A stretch of 64,000 nucleotides of DNA from the human T2T-CHM13v2.0 reference genome, Homo sapiens (GCA_009914755.4 CP068257.2:256001-320000); one strand, 5' to 3'; shown: positions 35,775 to 59,510, counted from the first letter of the stretch. The notes: generated from the letters alone by a model not told the origin. Numbers and translations are program-made.

Positions 35775-37071
35775 TAAGTCAAAACATACACTCATAGAAA
35801 ATGAATTAAGCTCATTAATTTGTTTCAAAAGCATAATTTTTAGTGAGATGGCTTCAGGAGATTAGAAGGAAGTAAACGTTAATTTGACAATGTAATTTTG
35901 AAAAATAATGTTAGTAAATAATCTTACCTTTAAAATGTTAGTCAAAGATAGTTTTAGTCTCTCCTCTCATTTTTTTTTTTTGCTTTTGTATGGCTTTTTT
36001 TCCTGAAAAGTCTCATGTAATTAACCTGATCTGTTAGTTTTCTTCACTAAGTATTTTTGAAGCTTTATAATTAATAAAGTGATCTTGTTATAAAATTACT
36101 TGTCAGAATTTCCCTAAATAGAAATATTAATGTGTTTAATTTACTTTTCTGTAGATCACAACCTAAATGCAAAGTGGTACTGCTACTCTGGGCACAATTG
36201 TTTTTGATTGTGATCTTTAGTATTATCACCAGAGTGTGCCTCAAGAAAGACTATTTGTGTAACATATTCAAGATGTTACAGAAAGGCACCCTTGTGAAAT
36301 AGGGAATAATTATCACAGGAATTTAAAGAAGTGTAATTCACAAAGCGGTTAAAAAATAACACCTTGTTCAGCCTGAAGTGTTGTGTGGAAGGCAGAAAGA
36401 ACATGCCCCACCTCCAGGGCCTTGGTCACAGTGTTGGGGGCTAATTGCCTTCAGAGATGCTTTAGTTCTTTTTGATCACCAACCAGACAATCTAGTTCTC
36501 CCCTAGGAGTTGTTGCTCTGAATTATTCCTCAGTGCCAAATGTTTAATTGGTCCTAGATAATGGGTGAAATGTACAAGAGTGAAATCTAAAACTGGTTTA
36601 CTAAACACAAGTATTCCTAGATTTTTTTTTTGTTCATTTTAGTTTTCTTCACCTACATTAAGGAGTACAACATGATGTTTTGATATAATTATTTCTAGTG
36701 AAGTGGTTCTTATAATCAAGCAAATCAACATATTCATTTTCCCACATTATTACCCTTTAAATACAAGTATTTCTAATGGAATCTTCAGAATCTTACAAGT
36801 AGAGCCATTTTAGAAGGCAGGAAGTTTTACCTGTTGAGCCATACATCACTGATAGCCATTTCTCTTCCCTGTCTACTTTGTTTGAACTGCTTGTTCAGTA
36901 GAAATCACCTTAGAAACAATGGTGCTTCTTTAGAACGATTTTAAAATTATAATTCCTTACAACAGGTATGCTCTTACACATCTTCTGTGTGAAAACACTA
37001 TTTAGTGGGTAATTTGGCTTACTCTCAGGGTAAGTTTTTAAAAACTGCAAGTCATTAAGAATCATTAAGAA

Positions 37072-37545
37072 GCCTGGTCAGTGGGGGGACCTAGTCAGTG
37101 TTGGCCTTATTAGTGTGGCCTGATCAGTTGGAACATAAACAATGAAAAACTGGTTGATGGGGCATATACAGTATATCAGAGGCCTGGTCAGTGTGGGGCC
37201 TTAGTGGCTTGGAGCCTGGTCAGTGAGGGCCTGGTCAGAGGGGGCTCCGTCAGCTAGGGACTCATCCATGGAGAATTGTTCAGTGGGGGGTCGTGTGAGC
37301 AGCAACCTGGTAAATTGTGGTCTTGTCAGTGGGAAACCAGTCTTGTCAGTGGGACCAGGTCAGTGGAAAATTGGTCAGTGTGGTCTGGCCCATGAGACCT
37401 ATCAAATGCGGGCCTGGTTAGGAAGACATGGTCAGTGGGGACTTGATCAGTGGAACCTGGTCAATGGAGGAGTGGTCATTAGGGGTCTCATCACTCATCA
37501 CTGGGAACCTGGTCAGGGGCGATTGGTCAGTACGTGGCCTGCTGG
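37072..37545. repeat. degenerate ~15-18-bp minisatellite (GGSCYTGRTCAGTGG-like), copy A
   Basis: gcctggtcagtggggggacctagtcagtgttggccttattagtgtggcctgatcagttgg … gcctggtcagtgagggcctggtcagagggggctccgtcagctaggg …. Confidence 0.8.
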
Positions 37546-40721: not shown

Positions 40722-42623
40722 TTGATGATGCAATTTGAATATGTGTCCCCACCAAATCTCATGTTGAATTATATTTCCTAATGTGGAAGTTGGATCCTGG
40801 TATAAGGTGATTGAATTATGAAGGCAAATTTCTCATGAATGGTTCAGCACCATCCCCTTGTACCATCCTTACAATAATGAGTGACTTCTCATGAGATGTG
40901 GTCACTGAAAACTCTATATCACCTCCCTACTCTCCGTGTTTTCCCCTTGCCATGTGAGACAATTGATTCTTTCTTTGCCTTCCATGATTATTGAAAGATT
41001 TCTGAGGCCTAGAAGCAGAAGCACTCTGCTTAGAACCATGAGCCAATTAAACCTCTTTTTCAAAATAAATCATACAGAAAATGGTAAATGAGGACTGGAG
41101 CATTGCTATAAAGATACCTGGAAATGTGCAACCAGCTTTGGAACCAGGTAATGGAAGGAGGTTGGAAGAGTTTGGAGGGCTCAAAAGAAGACAGATAGAT
41201 GAGAAAACTTTTGGACCATCTTAGAGTCTGGTTCAATGGTTGTGACAAAAATCCTGACAGAAAAATGGACAGTGAAGGCCAGGCTGAGGAGGTCTCAGAG
41301 AGAAATAAGAAGCTTTCTGGAAAATGTCTTCCTTTTGGATATGGAAAGCTTACACAATGCCTGTACCATCATTGTACCTTAGAAGCAGTGGCCTTGCTTT
41401 TTATTTCAGAGACTCATAGGCAAAAGAGACTGTAGCCTTGACCCAGAGGAAACTTTGGACTTTGTAACTTTGAGTTAATCCTGAAATGAGTTAAGACTTT
41501 GGGAGACTGCTGGCAAGGCATGATTATATTTTGCAATGTGAGAAGGACATGAGATTCATGGGGTCAAGGACAAAATATACGGTTTTTCTCTATGTCCTTA
41601 CCAAAACTCACGTGGAATTATATTTTGTAATGTTAGAGGCAAGGTCTAGGTTGAAAAAGATTTAGTCATAAAATGGTGCAGGTAGATACTTCACGAATGA
41701 TAAAGGACCATCACCTTGATGCTATCCTCCTGATAATGAGTGAGTTCTCACGAGATCTGGTTGTTTAACAGATCTCATCCTCCTGCTCCTGCTTTAGGAG
41801 ACATCTCATTGTCCCTTGGCTTTCTGATATAATGAGGAGGCTTCCTGATTCCTCCCAGAAACAGAAGACACTATACTTCCTTCACAGCTTGCAGAACCAT
41901 GAGTCAATTACACCTCTTTTATTTACAATAATACAGAAAATTAGAACTGCAGAGAGGAGCTGTGAAATGTCTTCAAGGCCTTTTTCCCTTTGTTTTGGCT
42001 ATTAGCACAGGGCTTCTTTATATGCAAATTTCTGAAATCTTCTTGAATGTTTCCCCTTAAATGGGATTTTTGTTATTGCTACACAGCCAACCTGCTATAC
42101 AGATTTCTGAAAAAGTAGAAGGAGGCTCAGTAGTGGGTAGCAAACAAAGATTGGAAGGGTTTGGAGGGATTAGATTATGACAGGGAGTGGGAGGGAGTGA
42201 TTTAATCATGCATGGGTGGGGGTGGATGTGGAAGGGAAAAAGGGGTGGGTAGGGTGGGAGGGAGTAGACTGGCTGTACGGTGGTGGGAGGGTGGTGGGTA
42301 GTAGGAAGGGAGAGTATCCTGCTGCAGAGGCAGAGTATCATGGAAAATCCCTCCTAGGGAAGTGCACCTGTGGCTTTGCAGGTTTGAGCCCCAATGGCTG
42401 CTCTCAAGGACTGGACTAGTGTTGAGTGCCTGTAGCTTTTCCACACGGAGGGTGCAAGCTGTTGGTGGGTCTATGAATCTGGGGTCTGGAGGGTGGTGGC
42501 CCCCTGCGTGGGGGCTCCAAGTCCATATTTTCCTTCTGCACTGCCCTAGTAGAGGTTTCCCAAGAATGATTCATCTGCAGCAGGCTTCAGCCTGGAAACA
42601 GTGGGAGGTGGGGGTGGGAGGCA
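40722..42623 (+). mobile_element. leading, less rearranged MaLR copy (unit 0): LTR 40722-41065, 5' internal piece, deletion, 3' internal piece, LTR ~41590-41945, then internal start
   Basis: LTR start tgatgatgcaatttgaatatgtgtccccaccaaatctcatgttgaatt and LTR end ccatgagccaattaaacctctttttcaaaataaatcatacag, then internal 5' (…ccagctttggaaccaggtaatggaaggaggttggaagagtttggagggctcaaaagaagacag…). Confidence 0.7.
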
Positions 42624-45600
42624 GATCCTTCACCAATGGTTAGGCAACATCTTCTTGATGCTGTCCTCATGAAAGTGTGTTCTCATGAGATCTGGTTATA
42701 TAACAGGGTGTGGCACCTCTTTCCTCTCTCAGTCTTGCTTCCACCTCTGCCATTTGAATCATCTCATTGCCCCTTGGCCTTCTGGTATGATTGGAAGGCT
42801 TCCTGATCTGATCCTCCCAGAAGCAGAAGCCACTGTGTTTCCTTTACAGCCTGCTGAACCATGAACCAATTAAACCTCTTTTCTCTATGATCATACAGAA
42901 GATTAGTACTATGAAGTGGAGCCATGAAATGCCTTCCAGGCCCTTTCCCCTTTGTCTTGGCAACCAACACTCAGCTTCTTTTCATGCAAATATCTGAATC
43001 CTTCATGAATTATCCCCCTGAAAATGGACTTTTCTGTTTTACCACATTGCCAGGCTGTGATAAAGATAGCTGACAATGTAGAACCAGGTTCAGAAGTGGG
43101 TAAAAGACAGAGGTCAGAAGAGTTGGGAAAGCTTAGAAGACAGCAAGATGAGGAAAATATTGGACCACTATAGAGAATTGTTAAATACTTGTGATAGGAA
43201 GGCTGACAAAAGTGTAAACACTGAAGTCCAGAACTAAAAGGTCTCAGATGAAAATGAGGAATTTCCTATGAACAGGAGCCAAGATTACATTTGATTGGCC
43301 TTAGCAAAGAAGCTGGCTGCACGGGGACCCTGCCCTGGAGATCTGTGAAACTATGAACTTGGGGGTGATGATTTAGGATGTATCTGGTGAAATGAACATC
43401 TAGGCAGCATAGCACAAGAGGTGTCCTGCCTGCATTGAACAGCCTGTGTTCTTATGGGTGACCTAAGAAGTGACTTCAAGTTGGAACTTCAAGTGGAGAT
43501 CTAAAGTTTGGAAAATTTGGAGCCTGGCTAAGTGGTCAAAAAGAAAAGCCGATTTTGAGGGGGAAAATTCAAGAAGGCTTAAGGTATTTGTATAAAAAGG
43601 AACCCAGTGCATAAAGCCAAGATAGTGGGAAACCGGCCATGAAAGCATTTTAGAGATGTCTGCAGCAGCCCTTGCTGTCACAGGCCCTGGGGCCTAGGAG
43701 AAAAGAATGGTTTCCTAGGCCAGTCCCATGGCCCTGCTGCTGTGCTCAACTGCAGGACACTGCTGCCGGCATCCGTGCAGCTCCAGCACCAGCCATGGCT
43801 GAAAGATGCACAGGTACAGCTTGGGTCATTGCTTCAGAGGTGGCTCAAAGTCTTGATGGTTTCCATATAGTGTTAAGCCAGTAGGTGCACAGAGAAAGAG
43901 ATTAGAGGCTTGAGAACTCCCGTCTAGACTCCAGAAGATGTACAGAAAATCCTGGATGTTCAGGAAGAAGCTTTTCCGAGAGGCAGAGCTTCATGGGGAA
44001 CCTCTACTAGGGGAGCAAAGAAGGGACCTATAGGGTTGAAGCCCCCACACAGGAAGGCATCATTCTCTAAACCCCAGATTCATAGACCCACAAACAGCTT
44101 GCACCCTCAGTGTGGAAAAGCTATGGGCACTTAACAACAGCCCTGTCCATGAGAGACAGCCGCAGAGGCTGAACGCTGCAAAGCCACAGGTGCAGATCTG
44201 CCCAAGGCCTTGGGAGCTCAGCCCTCACAGCACTGTGCCATGGATATGGGACAAGAATTCAAAAATGATGATTTTGGAGCTGTAGCATTAAGTGACTGGC
44301 CTGCTGGGTTTTGGACACTTATGTATCCTATGAGTCATCCATTGCCTGTACAATCATTGTACCTTGGAAGTAGTAAACTTGCTTTATAACTCAGTGGCTC
44401 ATGGGCAGAAGGGACTGTAGACTGGTCTCAGATAAGACTCTGGGCTTTGCGCATTTGAGTAAATGCTGGAATGAGTTAAGATTTGAGAGACTCTAGGGAA
44501 GGCATCATTACATTTTGCAATGTGAGAAAGACATGAACTTTGGGGGACCAGAGACAGAATAATATGTTTTGGCTCTCTGTCTCTACCAAAGCTCATGTGG
44601 AATGTTAATGCGAAATGTTAAAGGTGGGAGCTGGTGGAAGGTGATTTAATCATGGTGGAGAGTGGAGGTTGGATGGTTGGGGGCGCTAGGAGGGTGGGGA
44701 TGGTTGGAGGGAATTGGGGGTGGGGATGGTTGGAGGAGATTGTGGTGGGGTTGGGGATGAAAGGCAGGGGTGGGGGTGGATCCTTCACAAATGGTTAAAC
44801 ACCATCTCCTTAATGCTGTCCTTCTGATAGTGAGTTAACTTCATGATTTTGGAGCTGTGAGATTGAATGAACACTGACGTACTGGATTTTGGATGTCCAT
44901 TGGGCCTGTGGTCCCATTTGTCTTATTTTTCTTGGAAATTTCTTCCCTTTGGATTAAGAAAGTTTACCCAGTACCTGTACCATCATTGTACCTTGAAAGA
45001 AACAAACACCCTTTTAACTTCAGGGACTTATAGGTAGAAGAGACTGTAGCCTTGTCTCAGATGAGACTTAGAACTTTTTACATTTGAGTTAATGCAGGAA
45101 GGAGTTAAGCCTTTTGGAAACTTTTGAAAAGACATGATTGTATTTTATTCTGTGAAAAGGATATGAGATCTAGGGGGTCAAGGTCAGCATAATATGATTT
45201 GGCTGTGTGCCCCTGGAAAAACTCATGTGGAATTGTAATCCCAAATCTTGGAGGTGGGGCCTGGTGGGAGATTATTTAATCATGGATGGGAGGGGTAGGG
45301 GTGGAAGAAAAAAGCGGTGGGTAGGGTGGGGAAGAATAGGCTGGCTGTAGGGCGGTGGGAGGGTGATGGATAGTAGGAAGGGGGAGTAGCCTGCTGCAGA
45401 GGCAGAAGCTCATGGAAAACCTCTACCAGGGCAGTGCACCTGTGGCTTTGCAGGCTTTAGCCCCCATGGCTGCTCTCATGGGCTGGGCTAGTGTTGAGAG
45501 CCTATCACTTTTCCATACTGAGGGTGGGAACTGTTGGTAGGTCTATGAATCTGGGATCTCGAGGATGGTGGCCTCCTGCATAGTCAGTCAAAGCCCTTAT

Positions 45601-45701
45601 TTTCCTTCTGCACTGCCATAGTACAGGATTCCCAAGAGCCTCTGCCTCTGCAGCAGGCTTCTGTCTGGAACAGTAGGAGGTGGAGCTGTGTTGGTGGGTT
45701 G
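42624..45701 (+). repeat. MaLR-derived array unit 1 (3078 bp)
   Basis: Bounded by the recurring ggatccttcaccaatggtta landmark; contains internal region 42700-44540, an LTR 5' part with a G-rich insert, the internal 3' tail and a second LTR 5' part with an inverted internal fragment. Confidence 0.75.
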
Positions 45702-48700
45702 GATCCTTCACCAATGGTTAAGCACCATCTTCTTGATGCTGACCTAGTGATAGTGAGTTCTCATGAGATCTGGTTATATAACGGTGTGGCACCTCTTTCC
45801 TCTCTCAGCCTTGCTCCTACTCCTGCCGTATGAAACATTTCATTGTTGTTTTCCTACTGGTGTGATTGGGAGGCTTCCTGAGTCCTCCCAGAAGCAGAAG
45901 CAGAAGCCACTATGCTTTCTTTACAGCCTGCAGAACCATGAGCCAATTAAACCCCTTTTCATTATGATCATACAGAAAATAAAGTACTGCGAAGTGGAGC
46001 TATGAAATATCTTCAGTGACATTTCCCCATCGTCTTGGCTATTAGCACTGGACTTCTTTTTAATGCAAATATCTGAAGCCGTCTTGAAGTTTCCCCCTGA
46101 AAATGGACTTCTTTTTCTTATACGTTGTCAGGCTGCAACAAAGATAGCTGAAAATGTAAAGCAGATTCAGAAGTGGGTAACAGCCAGAGGTTGGAGAGTT
46201 TGGAGAGCTTGAAAGAAGACAGGAAGATGAAAGAAATTTTGGACCATCGTAGGCACTTGTTGAATAGTTGTGATTAAAAGTCTGGCAGAAGGATAGACAG
46301 TGAAGGCCAGGCTTACAAGGTCTCAGATGAAAATGAGGAAATTACTGGGAACAGGAGCCAAGGTTACTTTTGTTTTGCTGTAGCAAAGAACATGGCTGCA
46401 GGGCGACCTTGCCCTCGAGATCTGTGAAACTTTGAACTTGAGGGTGATGATTTAGTGCATATCTGGTGGAATTAACTTCTAGGCAGCATAGCATAAGGGG
46501 GATTCTGTCTGCATCAAACAGCCTGTGCTCTTGTGTGACTGAGGTTATGCGTGACCGAGGAAATGACCTCAAGTTGGAACTTATATTTAAATGACAAGCA
46601 GAGCTCAAAAGTTTAGAACCATTTGCAGCCTGGCCAAGTGGTCAAAAAGAAAAGCTGATTTTCAGGGGGAAAATTCATGAAGGTTCCAGAAATTTGCATA
46701 AAATGGAGGCCAGTGCTAATAGCCAAGACAATGGGGGAAAAAGCCTTGGAGGCATTTCAGAGATGGTTGCAGCAGCCCTTGGTGTCACAGACCCTGGGGC
46801 CTAGGAGAGAAGAATGGTTTCCGGGGCCAGCCCCATGGCCCTGCTGCTGTGTGCAGCCTCAGGATACTGCTGCCTGCATCCCAGCAGCCGCAGCTCCTGC
46901 TCCGACCTTGGCTGAAAGATGCACAGGTACAGATTGCATCACTGCTTCAGAGGGTACAAGCTATAAGGCTTCACGGCTTCCACATAGTCTTAAGCCAGCG
47001 AGTCCATAGAGCACTAGCCCAGAGGCTTCAGAGCCTTCATATAGATTTTGGAAGATGTATGAAAATGCCTGGATGTCCAGACAGAAAGCTGCCAAAAAAG
47101 CAGAGCCTCCTGGGAAACCTCTACTAGGGCAGTGCAGAAGGAAAATATGGGGTTGGAGCCTCCACACTGGAGGCCACCATCATGCAGACCCCAGATTCAT
47201 AGACCCACCAAGAGCTTTGTACCCTCTGTGGGTAAAAACTACAGGCACTCAACACCAGCAAAGCCCATGAGGGCAGCTGTGGGGACTGAAAACTGCAAAG
47301 ACACAGGTGCAGACCTGCCCAAGGCCTTGGGAGTCCAGCCCTCATGCCCTTGTGCCCTGGATGTGGGAGAAGGATTAAAAAAGGATGACTTTGGAGCTGT
47401 AGGTTTGAGTAACTGGCCTGCTGGGTTTTGGATTTTCCTGGGACCTGTAAGTCCCGTTTGTGTTTCGTTGTTCTCTCTGGCAAAAATCTTCCTTTAGGGT
47501 GGGAATTCTTACTCAATGCCTGGACAATCATACCTTGGAAGTAGTTAACTTGCTTTGTATTTCAGAGGCTCAGGAGCAGAAGGGACTGCATCTTTGTCTC
47601 AGATGAGACTTTGGGCTTCAGACATTTAAGTAAATGCTGGAATGAGTTAAGACCTTGGAGGTCTTAGCCAAGACGATGGGGAAAAGTCAATGAAGGCATT
47701 TTCATAGCTTCACTTCACAGTACTAATTTTCTGTATGATCATAACAAAAAGGGGTTTAATTGGCTGATGGTTCTGCAGGCTGTAAAAAAAAGCATAGTGG
47801 CTTGGGGAATGGTAAGTAAGGCATCACTGTATTTTGCAAAGTGAGAAGGACATGAGATTTGGGGAGGCAGGGACAGAATAAGATTCTGCTGTGTGTCCCT
47901 ATGGAAACTCATGTGGAATTGTAATGAGAAGTGTTAAAATTGGGGCCAGGTGGAAGATGATTTAATCATGGAGGGCACTGGGTGTTGGAAGGTGGAGATT
48001 GGGGAGGATGGGTGGATTACGCTGGTGGTGAGGGGTGAAAAGTGGGGGTGGGGGGGATCCCTCACAAATAGTTAAACACCATCTCCTTAATCCTTTCCTC
48101 ATGATGGTGATTCTCGTGATAGTTTTGGAGCTGTGAGATTTAATGGATACTGGCCTCCTGGGTTTTGGACTTGCATTGGCCCTGCGATCCCATTTGTGTT
48201 ATTTTCCTGGCAAACCTCTACCCTTTGGATTGAGAAAACTTACCCAATGCCTGTACCATCATTGTACCTTGAAAGAAAAGAACTCCCTTTTAAATTCCGG
48301 GACTTATAGGCAAAAGGGACTGCAGCCTTTTCTCAGGTGAGACGTGGAACTTTTTACATTCGAGTTAATGCTGAAATGACTAAAGACTTTTGGCAACTTT
48401 TGAAAAGGCATGATTGTATTTTACTCTGTGAGAAGGATATGATATTTGGGGGATCAGGGTCAGAATAATATGGTTTAGCTGTGTGTCCCTACCTAAACTC
48501 ACATGTAATTGTAATCCCGAATGTTGCAGGTGGAGCCTGGTGGGAAGTGATTTATTCATGGATGGGAGAGGGGTGGGGTTGGAAGTAAAAACAGATGGGT
48601 AAGGTGAGGAGGAGTAGGCTGGCTGTAGGGTGGGGTGTAGCAGGAAGGGAGTAGCCTGCCACAGAGGCAGAGGCTCATGGAAAACCTCTACTAAGGCAGT

Positions 48701-48959
48701 GCACCTGTGGCTTTGCAGGGTTTAACACCTGCTGCTGCCCTCATGGGCTGGGCTGGTGTTGAGTGCCTGTAGCTATTCCATACCGGGGGTGTGAGCTGTT
48801 GGTGGGTCTATGACTCTTGGGTCTGGAGGATGGTGGCGTGGGGGCTCCAAGCCCATATTTTCCTTCTGTACTGCCCTAGTAGAGGTTTTCCAAGGGGATC
48901 TGTCTCTGCCTCAGGCTTCTGCTTGGAAACAGTGGGTGGTGGATATGGGGAGGTGGGCG
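45702..48959 (+). repeat. MaLR-derived array unit 2 (3258 bp)
   Basis: Same architecture as unit 1; roughly 10-20% diverged from units 1 and 3 by eye. Confidence 0.75.
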
Positions 48960-51900
48960 GATCCTTCGCCAATAGTTAAGCACAATCTTCTTGATGCTGA
49001 TCTCCTGATAGTGAGCTCTCATGAGATCTAGTTGTATAACAGGATGTCTCACCTCTTTCCTCTCTCTGTCTTGCTTCTACTCCTGCCATATGAAACATTT
49101 CATTGCCGCTTTGCCTTTTGGTATAATTGGGGGGCTTCCTGAGTCCTCCTACAAGCAGAAACCACTATGCTTTCTTTACAGCCTGAAGAACTGTGCGTCA
49201 ATTAGACCTCTTTTCTTTATGTAGATACAGAAAATTAATGCTGTGAAGTTATGAAATGACTTCTAGGCGTTTCCCCCATTCTCTTGGCTATTAGCATTGA
49301 GCTTTTTTCAATGCAAATATTGGAGGCCATCTTGATGTTTCCCCTGATAATGGACTTTTCTTCTTTTACCACATTGCCAGGCTGCAACAAAGATAGCTGA
49401 CAGTGTAGAAGCAGGTTCCAAATTGGGTAGTGGCCAGAGGTTAGAGAGTTTGGAGAGCTTGGAAGAAGACAGGAAGATGAGGGAAAGTTTGGACGATTGC
49501 AGAGACTTGTTAAATAGTTATGATTAAAAGGCTGACAGAGGATGGATACTGAAGGCCAGGCTTGTAAGGTCTCAGATGAAAATGAGGAACTTACTGGGAA
49601 AAGGAGCCAAGGTTTTTCTGTTTTGCCTTAGCAAAGTAATTGGCTACACAGTGACCCTTCCCGGGAGATCTGTGAAGCTGAACGTGAGGGTGATGATTTA
49701 GGGTGTATCTGGTGGAATGAACTTCTAAGCAGCAAAGCTCAAGAGTTGTCCGGCCTACGTCGAACAGCCTGTGCTCCTATGTGTGATGAAAGAAATGACC
49801 ATAAGTTGGAACTTATATTTAAATGAGAAGCAGAGCTTCAACATTTGGAAAATTTGTAATCTGGACAAATGGTCAAAAAGAAAAGCTGATTTTCAGGGGG
49901 AAAATCAAGAAGCCTTCGGATATTTGCATAAAAAGGAGCCCAGTGCTAATAATTCAAGACAATGGGAAAAAGGCCTTGAAGGCGTTTCAGAGACCTTTGT
50001 AGCAGCCCTTGCTGTCACTGGCCCTGGGATTTAGGAGAAAAGAATAGTTTCCTGGCCCAGCCCCATGGCTCCAGTGCTGTGTGCAGCCTCAGGACACTGC
50101 TGCCTGCATCCCTGCAGCTCCCTTTCCAGCTCCAGCCATGGATGAAAGATGCACAGGTACAGCTTGTGTCATGCTTCAGAGGATGCAAGCTCCAAGCCTT
50201 GGTGGCTTCCACATAGTGTTAAGCCAGCAGGTGCATAAAGCACAGGACTAGAAGCTTCAGAGCCTTGTCTGGACTCCAGAGGATATATCAGAAATCCTGA
50301 GTGTCTAGCCAGAAGCTTTTCCAAGAGGCAGAGCCTCATGGTTAACCTCTACTCGGGCAGTACAAAAGGAAAGTATAGGGTTGGAGTCCCCATACAGGGA
50401 GGCACCATTTTCCAGACCCCAGTTTCATAGACTCACCAGCTGCTTGTACCCTTAGTGTTGAAAAGCTACAGGCACTCAACACCAGCCTAGCCAATGAGGG
50501 CAGCTGTAGGGGGAAAATTCTGCAATGCCACAGGTGCAGAGCTGCCCAAGGCCTTGGGATCCCAGCCATCACACCACCCTGTGCTCTGGATGTGGACATA
50601 GATTCCAAAAAGATGATTTGGAGCTGTATGATGGAATGACTGGCCTGCTGGGTTTTTGACTTGCAGGGGATTTGTAAGTCCCGTCTGTGTTTTGTGCTTC
50701 TTTCTGGGAAATTTCTTCTTTTTGGCTTGGAATGCTTACCCAATGCCTGTACAATCATTGTAACTTGGAAGTGGTTAACTTGCTTTGTATTTCAGAGGCT
50801 CAGGCCAGAAGATATGACAGCCTTGTCTCAGAGGAGACTTTGGCCTTTGGACATTTGAGTAAATGCTGGGATGAGTTAAGATTTGGGGGACTCTAGGGAA
50901 GGCATCATTGCATTTTGCAATGTGAGAAAGACCTGAACTTTGGGGGACCAGGGACAGAATAATATGTTTTTGCTCTGTGTCTCTACCAAAACTCATGTAG
51001 AATTTTAATGGGAAATGTTAAAGGTGGGGGCTGGTGGAAGGTGATTTAATTATGGTGAAGAGTGGAAGTTAGATGGTTAGGGGGTTGGGGAGGGTTGGGG
51101 AGATTAAGGGGTGGGGAGGGTAGGGGGGATTGTGGTGGGGTTGGGGGTGAAAGACAGGGGTGGGGGGTGGATCCTTCTCAAATGGACATTTGAGTAAATG
51201 CTGGAATGAGTTCAGACATTGGGGGACTGTAGAGAATGCATCATTGTATTTTGCAGTATGAGAAGGATGTGATCTTGGGGGGCCAAAGGGAGAATAATAT
51301 GATTTGTCTCTGTGTCCCTACCAAAACTCATGTGGAATTATAATGGGGAATGTTAAGTATGGGGCTTGGTAGAAGGTGATTTAATCATGGTAGAGAATGG
51401 GGGTTGGAAGGGGGATGTGGGAGAATGGAGGTTCATGGTGTGGGTGAGGGTGAAACATGGGGATGGGTGGCAGATCCTTCACAAATGGTTAAATACTATC
51501 TCCTGAATGCAGTCTGTGTGATAGTGAGTTCTCATGATAAATGAATGCTGTCCTGCTGGGTTTTGGAGCCAGATTGGGCCTGTGTCCCATTTGTGTTATT
51601 TTTCTGGGAAAACCTTCCCTTTGGTTTGAGAAAGCCTACCCAGTGCCTGTGCCATCATTGTAACTTGAAAGAAAAGAATTGTCTTTTACATTCAGGGACT
51701 CATAGGCAGAAGGGATTGCAGCCTTCTCTTGGATGAGACTTGAACTTACTACATTTGAGTTACTGCTGGAATGAGTTAAGACTTTTTGAAACTTTTGAAA
51801 AGACATGTTTGTATTTTTCTGTGTGAGAAGGACATGAGATGTGGGGGTGTCAGGGTCAGGATAATATGGTTTGGCTGTGTTTCCCTACAAAAACTCATGG

Positions 51901-52371
51901 GGAATTGTATTCCTGACAGTTGTAGGTGGGGCCTGGTGGGAGGTGATTTAATCACAAATGGGAGGTTGGTAGGGGTGGAAGGGAAAACAAATGGGTAGGA
52001 TGGGGAGGAGTAGGCTGGCAGTAGGGTGGTGAGAGTTTCGTGGGCAGTAGTAAGGGGGAGTAGCCTGCTGCAGAGGCAGAGCCTCATGGAAAACCTCTAC
52101 CAGGGCAGTGAACCTATGGCTTTGCAGGGTGTAGCCCCCATGGCTGCCCTCATAGGCTGGGCTGTTGTTGAGTGCCTGTAGCTTTTCCATACTGAGAGTG
52201 CAAGCTGTTGGTGAGTCTATGAATCTGGGGTCTGAGGATGGTAACCTCCTGTGTGGGGCCTCCAAGCCCATATACTTTTTCTGCTCTGCCCTATTAGAGG
52301 TTTTCCTAGTGGCTCTGCCTCTGCCTCAGGCTTCTGCCTGGAAACAGTGAGGGGTGTGGGTGGTAGGGGGC
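48960..52371 (+). repeat. MaLR-derived array unit 3 (3412 bp; carries an extra ~300-bp duplication of the G-rich/LTR segment near 51000-51480)
   Basis: Landmarks at 48960 and 52372; duplicated segments ggtggatccttctcaaatgga (51166) and ggcagatccttcacaaatggttaaatac (51470). Confidence 0.75.
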
Positions 52372-55300
52372 AGAACTTTCACCAATGGTTAGGCAACATC
52401 TTCTTGATACTGACCTTGTGATAGTGAGTTCTCAGGAAATCTGGTTGTATAACAGGGTTATACAACGTGTGGCACCTTTTTCCTCTCTCTGTTTTGTTTC
52501 TACTTCTGCCATATAAAACATCCCATTCCTGCTTGGTTTCTGGTATGATTGGGAGGCTTCCTGAGTCCTCCCAGAAGCAGAAGCCTCTATGATTTATTTA
52601 AAGCTTGCAGAACCATGAGCCAGTTCAACCTCTTTTCTTTCAGATTATATAGAAAAATAATGCTATAAAGTGGAACTATGAAATGCCTTCAAGGCCTTTT
52701 TCCTATTCTCTTGGCAATCAGCACTCAGCTTCTTTTCAGGCAAATATGTGAAGCCTGCATTAATTTTTCTCCTGAAATGGACTTTTCTTCTTTTACCACA
52801 TTGCCAGGCTGTGACAAACGTAGCTGAAAATGTAGAAGCAGGTTGAGAAGTGTGTAATGGCCAGAGGTTGGAGAGTTTGGAGGTCTTGGAAGAAGACAGG
52901 AAGATGAGGAAAAGTTTGGATCAGTGTAGAGACTTGTTAAATAGTTATAATTAAAAAGGTGACAAAAGGATGGACAGTGATCACCAGGCTTAGAAGGTCT
53001 CACATGAAAATGAGGAGCTTGCTGGGAACAGGAGTCAAGGTCACTTCTGTTTTTTCCTTAGCAAAGAATGTTGCTGCACAATGCCCCTAACCTGGAGACC
53101 TGTGAAATTTTGAACATCAGGGTGATAATTTAGAGTGTATTTTGTGGAATGAAATTTTAGGCAGCAAAGCTTAAGAGGTGTCCTGTCTGTTTCGAACAGC
53201 CTGTGGTCCTATATGTGACAAAAGAAATGACCTCAAGGTTAAACTTGTATTTAAATGAGAAGGAGAGCTTAAAAGTTTGCAAAATTTGAAGCCTGGCCAA
53301 GTGGCCAAAAAGAAAAGCTGATTATCAGTGGGAAAGTTCAAAAAGTCTTCAGAAATGTGCATAAAAAGGAGTTCAGTGCTAATAGCCAATACAATGTTAA
53401 AAAGGTCTTGAAGGCATTTCAGAGACTTTTGCAGCAGCCCTTGCTATCACAGGCCCTGAGGCCTGGGAGAAAAGAATGGTTTCCGTCTCCAGCCCCATGG
53501 CCCCGCTGCTATGTCCATCCTCAGGACACTGCTGGCTGCATTCCTGAGGCTCCAACTCCGGCCTTGGGTGAAAGATGCACAGGTACAGCTTGGGTCACTG
53601 CTTCAGAGGGTGCAAGCTGCAAGCCTTGGTGGCTTCCACATAGTGTTAAGCCAGCAGGTGCACAGAGCACAAAACTAGAGGCTGGGGATCCTTTGTCTGG
53701 ACTACAGAGTATGTATGGAAAAACCTTGGTGTCCAGGTGGAAACTTTTCCAAGAGGCAGAGCCTCCTTTACTTAGGCAGTACAGAAGGAACATATACGTT
53801 TGGAACCCCATACAGGGAGGCAGCATTCTGCAAACGCCAGATTCATAGACTCACTAGCAGCTTGCACCCTGATTGTGGAAAAGCTATAGGTACTCCACAA
53901 CAGCCCAGCCCATGAGGGCAACTGGGGAGGTTAGACCCTGCAAAGTCACAGATGCAGACCTGCCCAAGGCCTTGGGATCCCAGGCCTCATACCCTTGTGC
54001 TCTGGATATGGGATCTGGATTCAAGAAAAGTGATTTGGAGCTGTAGGAATCAATGACTGGCCAGTTGGGTTGTTGACTTTTATGGGGTCTGTAAGTCCCA
54101 ACTGTGTTTTGTACTTCTTTCTGGCAAATTTCTTCCTTTTGGCTGGGAATACTTACCCATGCATGTACAATCATTGTACTTTGGAAGTGCTTGCTTTGTA
54201 TTTCAGAGGCTCAGGGGTAGAACATATGGCAGCCTTGTGTCAGAAGAGACTTTGGGCTTTGGACATTTCAGTAAATGCTGGAATGAGTTAAGAGATTGAG
54301 AAACTGTAGAGAAGGCATCATTGAACTTTGCAGTGTGAGAACAACATGAGATATGAGGGCCAGGGTCAGAATAATATGATTTGGCTCTGCATCCCTACCA
54401 AACTCATGTGGAATTGTAATGGGGAATGTTGAAGGTGGGGTCTGGTGGGAGGTGATTTCATAATGGAGAAGCATGGGGTTTGGAGGTAGGGCTGTGGGGA
54501 GAATGGGGGAGATTATTTTGTGGGTGGGAGTGAAAGATGAGGGTGGGGGTGCAGATCCTTCACAAATGGGTAAACACTATCTCCTTAATGCTGTTCACAT
54601 GACAGTGAGTTCTCTTGATGATGTTGGAGCTGTGAGATTGAGTGAATACTGTCCTGATGGGTTTTGGACTTGCATTGGGCCTGTGGGCCCATTTGTGTTA
54701 TTTTTCTGGGAAATCTCTTCCCTTTGGACTGAGAAATCTTACACAATGCCTCTACCATCATTGTACCTTGAAAGAAAAGAACTCCATTTTAAATTCAGAG
54801 ACTCATAGGCAGAAGGGACTGTGGCCTTATCTCAGATGAGACTTTGAATTTTTTACATTCGGAGTGAGTTAAGACTTTTGCAAACTTTTGAAAAGTCATG
54901 ATTGTATTTTGCTCTGTGATAAGGACATGAGATTCTGAAACATCAGGGTCAGAATTATATGGTTTGCCTGTGTGTCCTTATGAAACTCATGTGGAATTAT
55001 AATCCCTAATGTTGAAGCAAGTGACTTAATTATGGACAGGAGATTGGTGGTGATGGAAGGTAAAAGGGATGGGTAAGATTGAGAGGAGTGGGTTGGCTGT
55101 AGGGTGTTTGGAGGGTGGGGGGTAGTAGGAAGGGGGAGTAGCCTGCTGCAGAGGCAAAGCCTCATGGAAAACCTCCACTAGGGAAGTGCACCTGTGGCTT
55201 TGCAGGTTTTAGCCCCTCAGCTGTTCTCCTGGGCTGGGCTGGTATTGAGGGCCTGTAGCTTTTCCACACTAAGGGCGTGAGTTTGTGCGTCTATGAATCT

Positions 55301-55444
55301 GGGATCTGGAGGTTGGTGGCCACCTGTGTGGGGGCTCCAAGCCCATATTTTCTTTCTGTACTTCCATAATAGAGGTTTTCTAAGAGGTTCTGCATCTGAA
55401 GGAGGCTTCTGCCTGGAAACAGTGGGAGTTGGGGGTGTGGGGCG
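52372..55444 (+). repeat. MaLR-derived array unit 4 (3073 bp)
   Basis: Landmarks at 52372 and 55445. Confidence 0.75.
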
Positions 55445-58334
55445 GATCCTTCACCAATGTTTAAGCACCATCTTCTTGATGCTGACTTTGTGATAGTGAG
55501 TTCTCATGAGATCTGCTTGTATAATGCAGCATGACAACTTTTTCCTTTCTCTGTCTTGCTCCTACTCTTGCCATATGAGACATCTCCTTGCCCCTTGACA
55601 TTCTGGTATGATTGGGAGGCTTCCTGTGTTTTGTCAGATGCAGAAGTCATCATGCTTCCTTACAGCCTGCAGAATCATTAACCAATTAAACCTCTTTTCT
55701 TTGTGATCATTGAGAAAATTATGACTGCAAAGTGGATCTATTAAGTGTCTTCAAGGCCTTCTCCCTAACGTCTTGGCAATCAGCACTCAGCTTCTTTTCA
55801 CTCAAGTATCTGAAGCCTCCTTGACTTCTTCCCCAGAAAATGGGCTTGTCTTCCTTTACCACATTGCCAGCCTGCAACAAAGATAGCTGATAATGTAGAA
55901 GCAGGTTCAGAAGGGGGTAGCAGATGGAGTTTGGGAGAGTTTGGCGGACTTCAAAGACAGGGAGATGAGGGAAAGTTTGGATCTTTGTAAAGAATTGTTA
56001 AATACTTGTGATCAGAAGGCTCACAGGAAAATAGACAGTAAGGATCAGATTGAGAAGCTCTGAGATGAAAAGGAGGAACTTACTGCAAACAGGAGCCAAG
56101 GTTACTTTTGTTTTGCTGTAGCAAAGAACGTGGCTGCACAGTGACCCTGCCCTGGAGATCTGTGAAACTTTGAACTTGAGGGTGATGACTTACTGAGTAT
56201 CTGGTGGAATGAACTTCTGGGCAGCAAAGCTCAAGGGGTGTCCTGTCTGTATCAAATAGCCTGTGCCCTTATGTGTGACTGAGGAAATGACATCTGGATG
56301 GGTCTTACATTAAATCAGTCCCAACTCTTATATTATATGAGAAACAGAACTCAAAAATTTGCAGCCTGGCCAAATGGTCAGAAAGAAAAGCTCATTTTCA
56401 GGGGAAAACTGAGGAAGGCTTCAGAAATTTGCATGAAAAGGAGCCCAGTGCTAATAGCCAAGACAATAGGGAAAAGGCCTTGAAGCCATTTCAGAAACCT
56501 TTGCAGCAGCCCTTGCTATCATAGGCTCTGGGGCCTCAGAGAGAAGAATGGTTTCCTGGGCCAGTTCCATGACCCCCCTCTATATGCAGCCTCAGGACAC
56601 TGCTGCCTTCATCCCTGCAGTTCTAGCTCCAGCCATGGCTAAAAGATGCACAGGTACAGCTTGCATCACTGCTTCAGGGGTGCAAGCTTCAAGGCTTGGT
56701 GGCTTCCACATAGTGTTAAGCCAGCAGCTGCACAGAGCACATAACTAGACGCTTGCAAGCCTTTGTCTAGACTCCAGAGTATGTACGGAAAAACCTGGCT
56801 GTTCACACAGAATCTTTTCCGAGGCAGAGCCTCACGGGAAACTTTTACTAGGGCAGTACAGAAGGAGCATTTAGGGCTGGAGTCCCTAAATATGGAGGCA
56901 CCATTCTCCAGACTCCAGATTCATAGACCCACCAACAGCTGGCACCCTTAGTATGGAAATGCTACAGGCACTCAACATCAGCCCAGCCCATGAGGGCAGC
57001 TGCGGGGGATAGACCCTGCACAGCCACAGGTGCAGAGCTGCCCAAGGCCTTGGAAGCCCAGGCATCACACACCTGTGCTCTAGATGTGAGATGTAGATTC
57101 AGAAAAGATGATTTGGAGCTATAGGATTCAATGACTGGCCTGCTGGGTTTTTGACTTGCATGGGGTCTGTAAGTCCTTGTACATTTCAGTAAATGCTGGA
57201 ATGAGTTAAGTCATTGGGGGACAGTAGAGAAGTCATCAGTGTATTTTGCAGTGTGACAAGGATACAAGATTTGGGGAGCAAGAGCCAGAATAATATGATT
57301 TGATTCTGTGTCCCTACCAATGCTCATGTGGAATTGTAGTGGGGAATGTTAAAGGTGGGACCTGGTGGGAGGTGATTTAATCATGGAGAAGAGTGGGTGT
57401 TGGAGGTAGGGGTGTGGGGAGAATGGGAGAGATTATTTTGTGGGTGGGAGTGAAAGATGAGGGTGGGGGGCAGATTCTTCACAAATGAGTAAACATTATC
57501 TCCTTAATGCTGTCCGCACGACAGTGAGTTCTCTTGATGATTTTGGAGCTGTGAGATTGAGTAAATACTGTCCTGCTGGGTTTTGGACTTGCATTTGTGT
57601 TATTTTTCTGGGCAACTTCTTCCCTTTGGATTGAGAAGCCTTACCCAATGACTGTTGTACCTTGAAGGAAAAGAAATCCCTTCTAAATTCAGGGACTCAT
57701 TGGCAGAAGGGACTGTAACCTTGTCTCAGATGAGACTTTGAAATTTTTACATTCGGAATGAGTTAAGACTTTTGGAAACTTTTGAAAAGGCATGATTGTG
57801 TTTTGCTCTGTGAGAAGGACATGAGGTTCTGGGGAATCAGGGTCAGAATAATATGGGTTGGCTGTTGGCTGTGTGTCCCTATAAAACTCATGTGTCATCC
57901 TTAATGTTGGAGGTGGGCCAGGTGGGAAGTGACTTAATCTTGGATGGGAGGGGGTTGGGGTGGAAGGAAAAGGAGGGATAGTGTGGGGAGGAGTAGGTTG
58001 TCAGTAGGGTGGTGTGAGGGTGGGAGTAACCTGCTGCAGAGGCAGAGGCTCATGGGAAACCTCTACTAGGAGAGTGCACCTGTGGCTTTGCAGGGAGTAA
58101 CCCCCACAGCTGCTCTCATGGGCTGGGTTGGTGTTGAGTGCCTGTAGCTTTTCCATACTGAGAGTGTGAGCTGTTGGTGGGCTTATTAATCTGGAGTCTG
58201 GAGGATGGTGGCCTCTTGTGTGGGGGCTCAAAGCCTCTATTCTCCTTCTGCACTGCCATAGTGGAAGTTTCCTAAGAGGTTCTGCCTCTGCAGGAGGCTT
58301 CTGCCTGGAAGCAGTGGGCAGTGGTGTGGTTGGA
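55445..58334 (+). repeat. MaLR-derived array unit 5 (2890 bp); followed by a 168-bp partial unit that ends abruptly at minisatellite copy B
   Basis: Landmarks at 55445 and 58335; the LTR piece …ctcattgccgcttggccttctgatatggttaggagg joins directly to ggcctgatcagtg…. Confidence 0.75.
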
Positions 58335-58502
58335 GAATCCTTCACCATTGGTGAGTCTTCTTGATGCTGATCTCCTGATAGTGAGTTCTCATGTGATCTG
58401 GTTGTCTAACAGGATGTCACACCTCTTTCCCCTCTCTGTCTTGCTCCTACTCCTGCCATATGAAACATCTCATTGCCGCTTGGCCTTCTGATATGGTTAG
58501 GA

Positions 58503-59315
58503 GGGGCCTGATCAGTGTGGGCCTGCTCAGTGGACCTACTCAGCTGGGACTTGTCAGTGAGGCCTATTTAGTGGGGGTGGTCAGCAGGGGTCTGCTTAGA
58601 GCGGGTGTCATTAGAGGGATCTAGTAGTGCATGTCTTGGTGAGTGGGTTGATAGTGGCAGACAAATGTTTGGTGTCTGGTCAGTGCCAACCTGGGCTGTG
58701 GGACTCGGTCAGTGGAGACCTTGTCAGCTGGGGCTTAGTGGTGGCCTTGTCAGATTGGGCTGGGTTACTGGTGACTAGGTCAAGGGGCGCTATTCAGTGG
58801 AGGCCTGGTGACATGGGACCTAGTCAGCAGAGACGCTTATCAGTGGGGCCCTGGTCAGGGCAGGCTTGTCCGTGGAACTTAATCAGTGGGGGCCTGGTCA
58901 GAGAGGACTTGATCAGTGGTGGCTTTTGTAGCACTGGTCTACGGGTTGACCTGGTCAGCGGGGATCTGAGCAGTGCGTGCCTGTTCAGTGGGGCGTAGTC
59001 ATTAGGATCCCAGTCAGGGGCATCTTGTCACCTCAGGCCTGGTTAGCAGGGGCCTGGTCACTGGCTGTCTATTCCCTGCAGGCCTGGTCCGTGGGGCTTC
59101 GTCTGTGGGACCAGAAAATGGGGTCATGATCGGTGGAACCTGATCAGTGAGGCCTTGTCAGTAAGGTCCTCGTCAGTGGAGTCCTGGTCATTGTGGGCCT
59201 GGCAGCGGGAATCTAGTTAGTGAGGCCTGGTGATGGGGCTCTAATCAGTGAGGGTGTGGTCAGGGAGGAAGTGATATGCTGGATCTGGTCACCAGGGACC
59301 TGGTCAGTGGGGGCT
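58503..59315. repeat. degenerate ~15-18-bp minisatellite (GGSCYTGRTCAGTGG-like), copy B, same orientation as copy A
   Basis: …ggcctggtgacatgggacctagtcagcagagacgcttatcagtggggccctggtcagggcaggcttgtccgtggaacttaatcagtgggggcctggtcagagaggacttgatcagtgg…. Confidence 0.8.
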
Positions 59316-59510
59316 GCTGAGTACTGCTGGGAGATGTCAGGGGAAATGCATGTTATCGAGGAGCCTGTGGACAGCTGGGGTGGCCCAGTCGTGTTCAATG
59401 GCCCACTCAAAAGTGGACAAAGCAGGTGTTTTGATGGACCTGGGAGATCTTGCTCAGAGATTCTGACAGGACAAAGGTAAAGGAAGGGCCAGAGTGGTCG
59501 GAGAGATAGT

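What the first reader, a model, noticed from the sequence alone, without database searches (positions are those of the whole stretch)
42300..47330. Each MaLR array unit contains its own inverted repeat of ~280 bp (internal-region fragment) separated by ~1.4-1.6 kb
For example, 45400-45690 is the reverse complement of the forward internal segment at 47090-47330; ORFs 45505..45714(-) and 47055..47270(+) share …GGHH..DPRFID.P…. Likewise 42400-42600 against 43960-44230. The same pairing recurs in every unit: 48640-48960 against 50340-50560, 52050-52370 against 53780-54000, 55140-55440 against 56840-57060, and 58030-58330. So the scrambling event that created the unit inserted an inverted internal fragment into the LTR before amplification. 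Transcription through a unit would give RNA able to fold into a long imperfect hairpin, a possible substrate for endo-siRNA or piRNA-like processing, and the DNA is prone to secondary structure.
Basis: partly seen in the sequence, partly recalled or inferred. Interest (0 to 1): 0.5.

Follow-up and report, generated by a model that had tools for sequence, protein, structure and literature searches.

The report
Inverted repeats inside a MaLR-derived tandem array
Each ~3.1-kb unit of an old, decayed tandem array built from a rearranged MaLR retrotransposon (most likely on the distal short arm of human chromosome 21) really does carry inverted copies of its own internal region, but they look like neutrally decaying fossils of one ancient rearrangement rather than a maintained hairpin-RNA gene.

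Summary
All five complete units between about 42.2 and 57.9 kb have an inverted pair. The arms are 190-245 bp, 72-85% complementary and 1.4-1.6 kb apart. A sixth left arm has no partner because the array ends at 58504.

A ~400-bp insert sits in the LTR. It consists of a G-rich tract, a short forward piece of the internal region (F), and then the inverted arm A. All six copies share the same junctions. Two ordinary LTRs at the array's left edge lack the insert. A second, inner inverted pair (B/B') is nested inside A/A'.

Left arms cluster with left arms and right arms with right arms, so the inversion predates the amplification.

In silico, a unit transcript folds into a nested double hairpin. 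However, nothing indicates the pairing is maintained. Arms from the same unit or copy are no more complementary than arms from different ones, conservation along the unit is flat, and perfect duplex runs are only 14-24 bp.

Context: the window holds a WaluSat array and matches T2T-CHM13 chr21:256-320 kb. The MaLR array occurs in at least 45 variant copies in human-derived contigs, so it belongs to a segmental-duplication family. One paralogous contig shows an inversion bounded by the arms.

Verdict: an ordinary TE-derived fossil of low interest.

The parts
40725..41310 (+). Ordinary MaLR LTR (40725-41083) plus the first ~210 bp of the internal region. It has no G-rich insert, no arm A and no arm B. 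Used as the in-window reference.
41313..58504 (+). Tandem array of MaLR-derived composite units. There are 5 full units: 42190-45262, 45263-48542, 48543-51935, 51936-55019 and 55020-57924 (2905-3393 bp each), with partial units at both ends. Pairwise identity is 79-82% (K2P 0.20-0.25), the phylogeny is nearly star-like, and CpG o/e is 0.10.
45285..45384 (+). G-rich tract at the 5' end of the LTR insert, shown here for unit 2. Equivalent tracts follow every LTR 5' fragment in the units.
45385..45438 (+). F: a short FORWARD copy of INT ~945-998 that directly abuts arm A, giving the fold-back junction ...GGGCAGTGCA|CCTGTGG... with a 4-bp TGCA overlap. Other copies lie at ~42318-42366, 48656-48703, 52076-52110, 55154-55190 and 58042-58078.
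42363..42566 (-). Arm A (inverted INT ~1173->938), unit 1
43990..44194 (+). Arm A' (forward INT), unit 1
45429..45669 (-). Arm A, unit 2
47076..47320 (+). Arm A', unit 2. It carries an L-type patch at 5 of 17 diagnostic sites, either gene conversion from an L arm or retained ancestral states (unresolved).
48700..48907 (-). Arm A, unit 3
50324..50538 (+). Arm A', unit 3
52103..52342 (-). Arm A, unit 4
53775..53965 (+). Arm A', unit 4
55187..55417 (-). Arm A, unit 5
56817..57034 (+). Arm A', unit 5
58075..58309 (-). Arm A of the truncated sixth unit. It has no partner within its own unit; the nearest complementary arm is 56821-57034 (82%).
46000..46138 (-). Arm B (inverted INT 621->485) inserted at the LTR/INT boundary, unit 2. 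Other copies lie at 41960-42061, 42925-43057, 49252-49387, 52676-52811 and 55736-55877.
46623..46759 (+). Arm B' (forward INT 485-621), unit 2. Other copies lie at 49870-49992, 53290-53424 and 56359-56493.
46139..47656 (+). Complete forward MaLR internal region of unit 2. It is collinear with a THE1-type internal sequence.
47665..47803 (-). E: a younger inverted copy (90% identical) of 45904-46041 (LTR 3' end plus the junction with B). In the window it occurs only at the unit 2/3 boundary.
37070..37540 (+). Left block of the flanking degenerate ~15-bp minisatellite (GGCCTGGTCAGTGG-like)
58505..59330 (+). Right block of the same flanking minisatellite. It begins exactly where the array ends.

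Best explanation
This is a neutrally decaying fossil. A MaLR (THE1/MST-type) LTR retrotransposon underwent a complex local rearrangement, and the rearranged composite was later amplified in tandem.

Shown:
- Each unit consists of an LTR 5' part, a G-rich tract, F (forward INT ~945-998), A (inverted INT ~1173->925), the rest of the LTR, B (inverted INT 621->485), a full forward INT, and extra INT-3'/LTR-5' fragments.
- The two inverted pieces are collinear with each other and are interleaved with collinear forward pieces.
- A/A' and B/B' are equally diverged in the reconstructed ancestral unit (88.3% and 88.6%).
- The inversions predate the amplification.
- The array was later copied en bloc many times as part of a segmental duplication.

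Inferred:
- The inverted pieces arose in one replication-based, serial template-switching event (fold-back, MMBIR/FoSTeS-like) using the element's own or a neighbouring internal region as template. The evidence is the fold-back layout, the 4-bp TGCA overlap at the F|A junction and the nearby templates.
- The ~3.1-kb composite was then amplified to about 5.6 copies by unequal exchange, roughly 0.11 substitutions per site ago.
- Everything has since drifted.

If transcribed, a unit would fold into a nested, mismatch-rich double hairpin. Nothing indicates that this is used. The only detectable 'activity' of the arms is occasional recombination between them, seen as an arm-bounded inversion in one paralogous contig.
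For: - Map against in-window reference pieces: the same segment order and orientation in every unit.
- Alignment of six LTR+insert copies with identical junctions, against two uninterrupted LTRs.
- Arm phylogeny: L and R arms form separate clades.
- Consensus unit: A/A' 88.3% over 247 bp, B/B' 88.6% over 140 bp, F/A-end 93% over 57 bp.
- Units are star-like at 79-82% identity.
- Flat conservation at 74-86%, with the arms no better conserved than the rest, and CpG o/e of 0.10.
- No same-unit excess of complementarity in the window: 72.0% against 70.8%.
- No same-copy excess across 20 non-redundant paralogous copies: 77.8% against a permuted mean of 77.8%, p=0.80.
- A THE1-int sequence recalled from memory aligns collinearly at 74.6% over 1619 columns. 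Arms A, B and F map to single forward positions in it.
- INT ORFs have no Pfam domain.
- The junction-specific 22-mer is found in 67 host-derived metagenome contigs, giving at least 45 variants. Each is closest to one specific window unit, and the unit order is preserved in contig L013.
- L035 has reciprocal hybrid arms.
Against: - The ancestral arms already differed by ~12%. So either the inversion long preceded the amplification, or the inverted pieces were copied from a different, diverged MaLR copy. The latter would weaken a simple self-templated fold-back.
- A 4-bp palindromic overlap is weak evidence for microhomology.
- The MaLR reference sequences came from the window itself and from my memory, not from Dfam or RepeatMasker.
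- Transcription, small RNAs, RNA editing and methylation could not be examined, so a function cannot be strictly excluded.
- Evidence from short-read metagenome contigs (the L035 inversion and the L030/L056 mosaics) could include assembly artefacts.
Confidence: 0.8

Rival explanations
1. The inverted repeats make the array a functional hairpin-RNA locus. Transcripts through a unit fold into long dsRNA that is processed into endo-siRNAs or piRNA-like RNAs, or serves as an ADAR or MDA5 substrate, and selection keeps the structure.
For: - Arm duplexes are far more stable than shuffled controls.
- Global MFE folds of ~2.1-kb unit RNAs pair A with A' (149-202 pairs) on both strands, and B with B' (94-108 pairs).
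- The array is multi-copy in the genome, so the transcript dose could be high.
- Hairpin-derived endo-siRNAs from retrotransposon inverted repeats are known in mouse oocytes and Drosophila (PMC10317233, PMC11239679).
Against: - There is no excess complementarity between arms of the same unit or copy.
- The arms are no more conserved than the rest of the unit.
- Complementarity is 72-85%, with longest perfect runs of 14-24 bp.
- Mammalian somatic Dicer processes long hairpins with single-stranded overhangs poorly (PMC6391682).
- CpG o/e of 0.10 suggests long-term germline methylation.
- No expression data are available here.
Confidence: 0.05
2. The inverted internal fragments are remnants of a second MaLR copy that lay or inserted in the opposite orientation. 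They were reduced by deletions and interleaved with the first copy by ordinary breakage and repair, rather than produced by one template-switching event.
For: - A/A' and B/B' were already ~12% diverged in the reconstructed ancestral unit, as expected if the source was a different, older copy.
- F and A share a variant (GCTGCAG) that the forward INT of the units lacks.
- The unit contains several extra INT-3'/LTR-5' fragments, so more than one MaLR copy or partial duplicate was present at the locus.
Against: - No inverted LTR sequence accompanies the inverted INT pieces.
- The F|A junction is a fold-back, with forward and inverted copies of overlapping INT coordinates joined at a 4-bp overlap. 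Retrotransposition cannot produce that.
- A and B are collinear and equally diverged, which fits a single event.
Confidence: 0.13
3. The pattern is an artefact: either chance similarity or a misassembly of a difficult acrocentric region.
For: The region is highly repetitive and lies in a part of the genome that was assembled only recently.
Against: - E-values and shuffle controls exclude chance.
- The same F|A junction and the same unit architecture are seen in 67 independent short-read contigs from many samples.
Confidence: 0.02

Closest known systems
TE-derived 'composite' tandem arrays and macrosatellites of the T2T-CHM13 repeat catalogue (Hoyt et al., bioRxiv 10.1101/2021.07.12.451456)
   Same: The repeating unit is built from several TE pieces plus a simple-repeat tract, it is arranged head to tail, and it lies in segmentally duplicated acrocentric or pericentromeric sequence next to WaluSat.
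   Different: The units are only 79-82% identical, so this is an old array that has not been homogenised, whereas catalogued composite arrays have high identity within the array. None of the 19 named composites is MaLR-based. This unit also carries nested internal inverted repeats.
Hairpin-RNA / endo-siRNA loci formed by inverted repeats of retrotransposons or genes (mouse oocyte endo-siRNA loci; Drosophila hpRNAs, PMC10317233)
   Same: It has inverted copies of one sequence a few hundred bp long on one strand, separated by a spacer, and is predicted to fold into long dsRNA.
   Different: The arms are 72-85% complementary with perfect runs of at most 24 bp. There is no evidence that pairing is maintained. 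No small-RNA evidence is available. Primates are not known to have the oocyte Dicer isoform that makes mouse hairpins productive (my own knowledge; context in PMC6391682 and PMC11239679).
Inverted Alu pairs (IRAlus) as sources of dsRNA and of rearrangements (PMC7668262, PMC10164571)
   Same: It is a diverged TE-derived inverted repeat with a kb-scale spacer. Its arm identity is at the ~75% threshold studied for Alu-IRs. Occasional arm-to-arm recombination is plausible (L035).
   Different: The arms derive from one element's internal region through local rearrangement, not from two independent insertions. They are also replicated in every unit of a tandem array.
Fold-back / template-switch inverted duplications (MMBIR/FoSTeS-type complex rearrangements; small-scale analogue in PMC8604942)
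   Same: A forward piece abuts an inverted piece of overlapping source coordinates, with a spacer and a short junctional overlap. There are several interleaved collinear segments, and the templates lie within ~1.5 kb.
   Different: This is an ancient, fixed event inferred from sequence only. The ~12% ancestral arm divergence is not expected immediately after a self-templated event.

Membership tests
MaLR (ERVL-MaLR, THE1/MST group) derived sequence | An LTR of ~350-450 bp flanking a ~1.5-1.6-kb internal region | tested here: met
   The LTR is 359 bp (40725-41083). The forward internal region is ~1586 bp (46139-47656 plus 47804-47871), followed by an LTR 5' end.
MaLR (ERVL-MaLR, THE1/MST group) derived sequence | Sequence homology to the family consensus | tested here: met
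   THE1-int recalled from memory aligns collinearly to the unit consensus 876-2439 at 74.6% over 1619 columns, E=0. The LTR 3' half aligns at 77% over 214 columns. Caveat: the reference is from my memory, not Dfam, so the subfamily (THE1 versus MSTA-D) is unresolved.
MaLR (ERVL-MaLR, THE1/MST group) derived sequence | The internal region lacks recognisable retroviral gag/pol/env domains | tested here: met
   ORFs in the internal region gave no Pfam family at or above its curated cut-off.
MaLR (ERVL-MaLR, THE1/MST group) derived sequence | Target-site duplication flanking the element | not tested
   The right end of the original element has been lost in the array, so no TSD comparison was attempted.
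T2T-type composite tandem array | A repeating unit made of three or more repeat components, arranged head to tail | tested here: met
   The unit contains LTR pieces, INT pieces in both orientations and a G-rich tract. There are about 5.6 tandem units.
T2T-type composite tandem array | High identity between units (recent or homogenised array) and an entry in the catalogue | tested here: not met
   Units are 79-82% identical. No MaLR-based composite is among the 19 listed.
Hairpin-RNA / endo-siRNA locus | An inverted repeat able to form long intramolecular dsRNA | tested here: met
   MFE folds pair A/A' (149-202 pairs) and B/B' (94-108 pairs). Duplex energy is about 20 sd or more below the mean of the shuffled controls. 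The duplex is imperfect, at 72-85% complementarity.
Hairpin-RNA / endo-siRNA locus | Evolutionary maintenance of arm complementarity | tested here: not met
   In the window, same-unit identity is 72.0% against 70.8% cross-unit. Across 20 paralogous copies, same-copy identity is 77.8% against a permuted mean of 77.8%, p=0.80. Conservation is flat.
Hairpin-RNA / endo-siRNA locus | Transcription across both arms, and 21-23-nt (or piRNA-sized) reads from the arms | not testable with these tools
Fold-back / template-switch rearrangement | Forward and inverted copies of overlapping source coordinates joined directly, with the template nearby | tested here: met
   F (INT ~945-998, forward) abuts A (INT 1173->~925, inverted) in all six copies. 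The source INT lies 1.4-1.6 kb away.
Fold-back / template-switch rearrangement | Microhomology at the junctions | tested here: inconclusive
   There is a 4-bp TGCA overlap at F|A in the consensus. It is short and palindromic. The other junctions are blurred by divergence and by the G-rich tract.
WaluSat-bearing segmental duplication (genomic context) | A 64-bp WaluSat monomer array adjacent to an Alu | tested here: met
   The TRF consensus of 22727-24388 (26 copies) is 64/64 identical to the published WaluSat consensus and 62/64 to the FISH probe. An Alu at 22419-22704 abuts it. The length and offset match the listed chr21:278726-280387 array.

The most novel reading that the evidence does not exclude
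The array family, which is dispersed by segmental duplication over acrocentric and pericentromeric regions (at least 45 junction variants seen), is transcribed from MaLR LTR promoters in germline or early embryo. Its nested A/A' and B/B' hairpins would then act as a collective source of long dsRNA (an ADAR, Dicer or MDA5 substrate). In addition or instead, the inverted arms would drive recurrent inversions and exchanges that contribute to structural heterogeneity of acrocentric short arms.
Probability: 0.07. Interest if true: 0.5.

Novelty: new member of a known kind. Interest (0 to 1): 0.2.

Why it matters
Mostly it does not. The finding is a well-behaved example of how one complex rearrangement inside a retrotransposon can be frozen, amplified in tandem and then spread by segmental duplication.

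It has modest value in three respects:
- It gives a dated order of events (inversion, then tandem amplification, then en-bloc duplication) in a region of the human genome that was sequenced only recently.
- It offers a natural series of paralogous inverted repeats at ~77-88% identity and ~1.4-kb spacing. One of them apparently recombined arm-to-arm, which is relevant to how diverged, widely spaced inverted repeats behave in vivo.
- It marks a repeat architecture that could confuse read mapping and assembly on acrocentric short arms.

Tried and rejected
- Rfam scan of the whole window: no family matched.
- Alu, B1, B2 and THE1B LTR consensus sequences from memory. The Alus established a primate origin. 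The THE1B LTR gave only weak hits because the array's LTRs are very diverged.
- Search for an independent MaLR copy elsewhere in the window: none exists outside the array apart from the edge element.
- Idea that the G-rich tract at the insertion point is a G-quadruplex hotspot that triggered the rearrangement. Only two canonical G4 motif clusters occur in the array, so I dropped it.
- Idea that the window is from a non-human ape, because no contig exceeded 98.6% identity over whole arms. This was superseded by the exact WaluSat coordinate match to CHM13 chr21 and by contig segments 97-100% identical to window units.
- Test of whether the L-type patch in arm R2 is gene conversion. Singleton counts and typing of paralogs left it unresolved.
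- Looked for the flanking minisatellite among named T2T satellites. 'erinome' shares only a 10-mer core, so I do not equate the two.
- Tried to list catalogue entries inside chr21:256-320 kb by text search: no matches, because of the table format.
- The protein homology, structure prediction and covariance-model tools were not used, because nothing here is a credible protein or structured-RNA gene.
Full report

Yes. A self-comparison of 38-64 kb on both strands and the repeat finder show a tandem array from about 41.3 to 58.5 kb. Its units are 2.9-3.4 kb long and 79-82% identical.

- 42363-42566 / 43990-44194 (80.5%)
- 45429-45669 / 47076-47320 (77.1%)
- 48700-48907 / 50324-50538 (77.7%)
- 52103-52290 / 53775-53965 (76.6%)
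- 55187-55400 / 56817-57034 (75.7%)

A sixth left arm at 58075-58309 has no partner, because the array ends at 58504. This is far beyond chance. Bit scores are 135-187. RNA duplex energies are -267 to -330 kcal/mol, against -111 to -135 for dinucleotide shuffles.

The arms are 190-245 bp rather than ~280. The shared peptide motif is real, but it is simply the same DNA in the same frame. These ORFs have no Pfam domain.

**2. What is it?**

The window is primate DNA with many Alus. The left edge of the array keeps an ordinary element: a 359-bp LTR (40725-41083) followed by the start of an internal region. Using that LTR and the uninterrupted forward internal region of unit 2 (INT, 1586 bp) as references, every unit maps to the same layout:
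- [INT 3' end + LTR 5' part + G-rich tract]
- [INT 3' end + LTR 5' part + G-rich tract + F + A + rest of LTR]
- [B]
- [complete forward INT]

F is a 37-54-bp FORWARD copy of INT ~945-998. A is INT ~1173->925 inverted. B is INT 621->485 inverted, sitting at the LTR/INT boundary.

The six copies of the LTR+insert region align collinearly with identical junctions. The two LTRs at the left edge run straight through the insertion point without the ~400-bp insert.

A THE1-type internal sequence that I wrote from memory aligns collinearly with the unit consensus at 74.6% over 1619 columns. In that reference, the segments corresponding to A, B and F each occur once, in forward orientation. So the forward INT is the canonical part and A, B and F are extra copies. 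The insert is a fold-back (F then A) behind a G-rich tract. A second inverted pair B/B' is nested inside A/A' in the order A..B..B'..A'. A third inverted piece, E (47665-47803), is 90% identical to 45904-46041. It occurs at only one unit boundary in the window and is clearly younger.

**3. Order of events**

Left arms cluster with left arms and right arms with right arms, so the inversion predates the amplification.

In the majority-rule consensus of the five units, A/A' are 88.3% identical over 247 bp, B/B' 88.6% over 140 bp, and F/A-end 93% over 57 bp. The equal divergence of A/A' and B/B', and the fact that the two inverted pieces are collinear with each other while the forward pieces between them are also collinear, fit a single complex event.

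The F|A junction (...GGGCAGTGCA|CCTGTGG...) has a 4-bp TGCA overlap between the two source strands. I therefore favour serial template switching during replication or repair (fold-back, MMBIR/FoSTeS-like). This is an inference. The ~12% arm divergence already present in the ancestral unit means either a long wait before amplification or a different MaLR copy as the source.

The units are nearly star-like (K2P 0.20-0.25), which indicates one burst of amplification.

**4. Does it do anything?**

In MFE folds of ~2.1-kb single-unit RNAs, A pairs with A' (149-202 pairs) on both strands in all five units. B pairs with B' (94-108 pairs), and the local F-A stem is outcompeted.

Every test for maintenance is negative:
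- In the window, arms of the same unit are no more complementary than arms of different units: 72.0% against 70.8%.
- Across 20 non-redundant paralogous copies recovered from public contigs, same-copy complementarity is 77.8% against a permuted mean of 77.8%, p=0.80.
- Between-unit conservation is flat at 74-86%, and the arms are not better conserved than the rest.
- The longest perfect duplex runs are 14-24 bp.
- CpG o/e is 0.10, as expected for long-methylated junk.

Mammalian somatic Dicer handles long hairpins with single-stranded tails poorly (PMC6391682). Small RNAs, RNA editing and transcription cannot be examined with these tools.

On the 'structure-prone DNA' claim: in the yeast Alu-IR system, instability in duplex DNA disappears at ~75% arm identity and falls steeply with spacer length. 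In long single-stranded regions, however, arms of at least 75% identity up to 30 kb apart still interact (PMC10164571). The present arms, at ~77% identity and 1.4-1.6 kb apart, sit at that limit.

**5. Context found on the way**

The 64-bp array at 22727-24388 (26 copies) is WaluSat. Its consensus is 64/64 identical to the published one and 62/64 to the FISH probe, and an Alu abuts it, as described for AluSx3-WaluSat. The paper's table lists 'chr21 278726-280387, 1661 bp'. Subtracting 256,000 (4 x 64,000) gives window position 22727. So the window is very probably T2T-CHM13 v1.0 chr21:256,001-320,000 on the distal short arm.

A junction-specific 22-mer (F|A) found 67 host-derived metagenome contigs. 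These hold 66 near-complete F+A copies in at least 45 variant clusters. Each is closest to one specific window unit at 82-98.6% identity and only 80-90% identical to its next-closest unit. The unit order is preserved in contig L013. Hence the whole array was duplicated en bloc many times after its units had diverged.

An SNX9/18/33-type BAR-domain pseudogene fragment and a degenerate 15-bp minisatellite on both sides of the array belong to the same duplicated neighbourhood. None of the 19 named T2T composite elements is MaLR-based.

**6. Do the arms ever interact?**

Contig L035 has a standard unit followed by the block between A' and the next A in inverted orientation. Its two bounding arms are reciprocal L/R hybrids with the switch in the same interval (RRRRRRRRRR|LLLRL and LLLLL-LL|RRRRR). 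The two arms share only a 21-bp exact run, which lies outside that interval, so a de Bruijn path-switch chimera is unlikely. This looks like a real crossover between the inverted arms in one paralog, but it needs long-read confirmation.

In the window itself, arm R2 carries L-type states at 5 of 17 diagnostic sites. Whether that reflects gene conversion or retained ancestral states is unresolved.

Contigs L030 and L056 are mosaics: 97-100% identical to one window unit, then switching to another unit type. That fits unit-level unequal exchange among paralogs or haplotypes, or else assembly mosaics.

**7. Verdict**

The origin interpretation is supported and refined. The functional speculation is unsupported, though not strictly excluded. 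This is an ordinary TE-derived fossil: a new, uncatalogued example of a known kind (a TE-derived composite tandem array with internal inverted repeats), sitting in a segmental-duplication family of the acrocentric short arms. Interest is low, at 0.2.

Noticed in passing
window 22419-24388: There is an Alu (22419-22704) directly followed by a 64-bp x 26-copy array (97% matches). The array's consensus is 64/64 identical to the published WaluSat monomer. Its length and offset match the catalogued CHM13 v1.0 chr21:278726-280387 array, which places the window at chr21:256,001-320,000 on the distal p-arm.
   Followed up: yes
L001-L067 (metagenome contigs, many labelled human skin metagenome): The F|A junction 22-mer occurs in 67 host-derived contigs, which form at least 45 distinct variants. 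Each is closest to one particular window unit, so the whole MaLR array belongs to a multi-copy segmental-duplication family. No contig is more than 98.6% identical over a whole arm region, although segments reach 97-100%.
   Followed up: partly
L035:1-5251 (compare window 47076-48907): In this paralogous contig the block between arm A' of one unit and arm A of the next is inverted, and the two bounding arms are reciprocal L/R hybrids. This is the signature of an arm-to-arm crossover. An assembly chimera is unlikely but not excluded.
   Followed up: partly
window 47076-47320: The right arm of unit 2 carries left-arm-type bases at 5 of 17 diagnostic sites, in a cluster, and six paralogous copies share the patch. 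It may be gene conversion between the inverted arms, or retention of ancestral states.
   Followed up: partly
window 37070-37540 and 58505-59330: The same degenerate ~15-bp minisatellite (GGCCTGGTCAGTGG-like) lies in the same orientation on both sides of the region containing the array: 17 matches against 0.4 expected. The right block starts exactly at the array's end. It shares only a GGGGCCTGGT core with the T2T 'erinome' satellite, which that paper often lists as 'two arrays separated by MSTA'.
   Followed up: partly
window 39434-39595 / 39987-40148 and 39942-40232: There is an inverted pair (163 bp, 91%) within a pseudogene-like fragment. The fragment's translation matches the BAR domain of sorting nexins 9/18/33 (Pfam PF10456, E=1.4e-14), and 3'UTR-like sequence runs from it up to the MaLR LTR. 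It is probably one of the SNX18-like pseudogenes of pericentromeric and acrocentric duplications.
   Followed up: partly
window 59524-59795 / 60220-60491: This is the longest inverted repeat in the right part of the window: 272 nt, 86% complementary, with 424 nt between the arms. It lies in GC-rich sequence and is not an Alu by BLAST. Its nature was not examined.
   Followed up: no
window 47665-47803: A younger inverted duplicate (90% identical) of 45904-46041 is inserted in the INT 3' end at the unit 2/3 boundary only. It is also present in paralogous contigs (L035, L045), so it predates at least part of the segmental spread.
   Followed up: partly
L030, L056 (compare window 45300-47450 and 48640-50890): These contigs are mosaics: 97-100% identical to one window unit, then switching abruptly to another unit type. 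This suggests unit-level unequal exchange among paralogous arrays or haplotypes, or assembly mosaics.
   Followed up: partly
window 44655-44780, 45285-45384, 51077-51131 and equivalents: G-rich tracts (GGGTGG/GGATGG-like, partly with a 26-bp period) follow every LTR 5' fragment inside the units but are absent from the two edge LTRs. Only two clusters (42234, 51080) meet a canonical G4 motif.
   Followed up: partly
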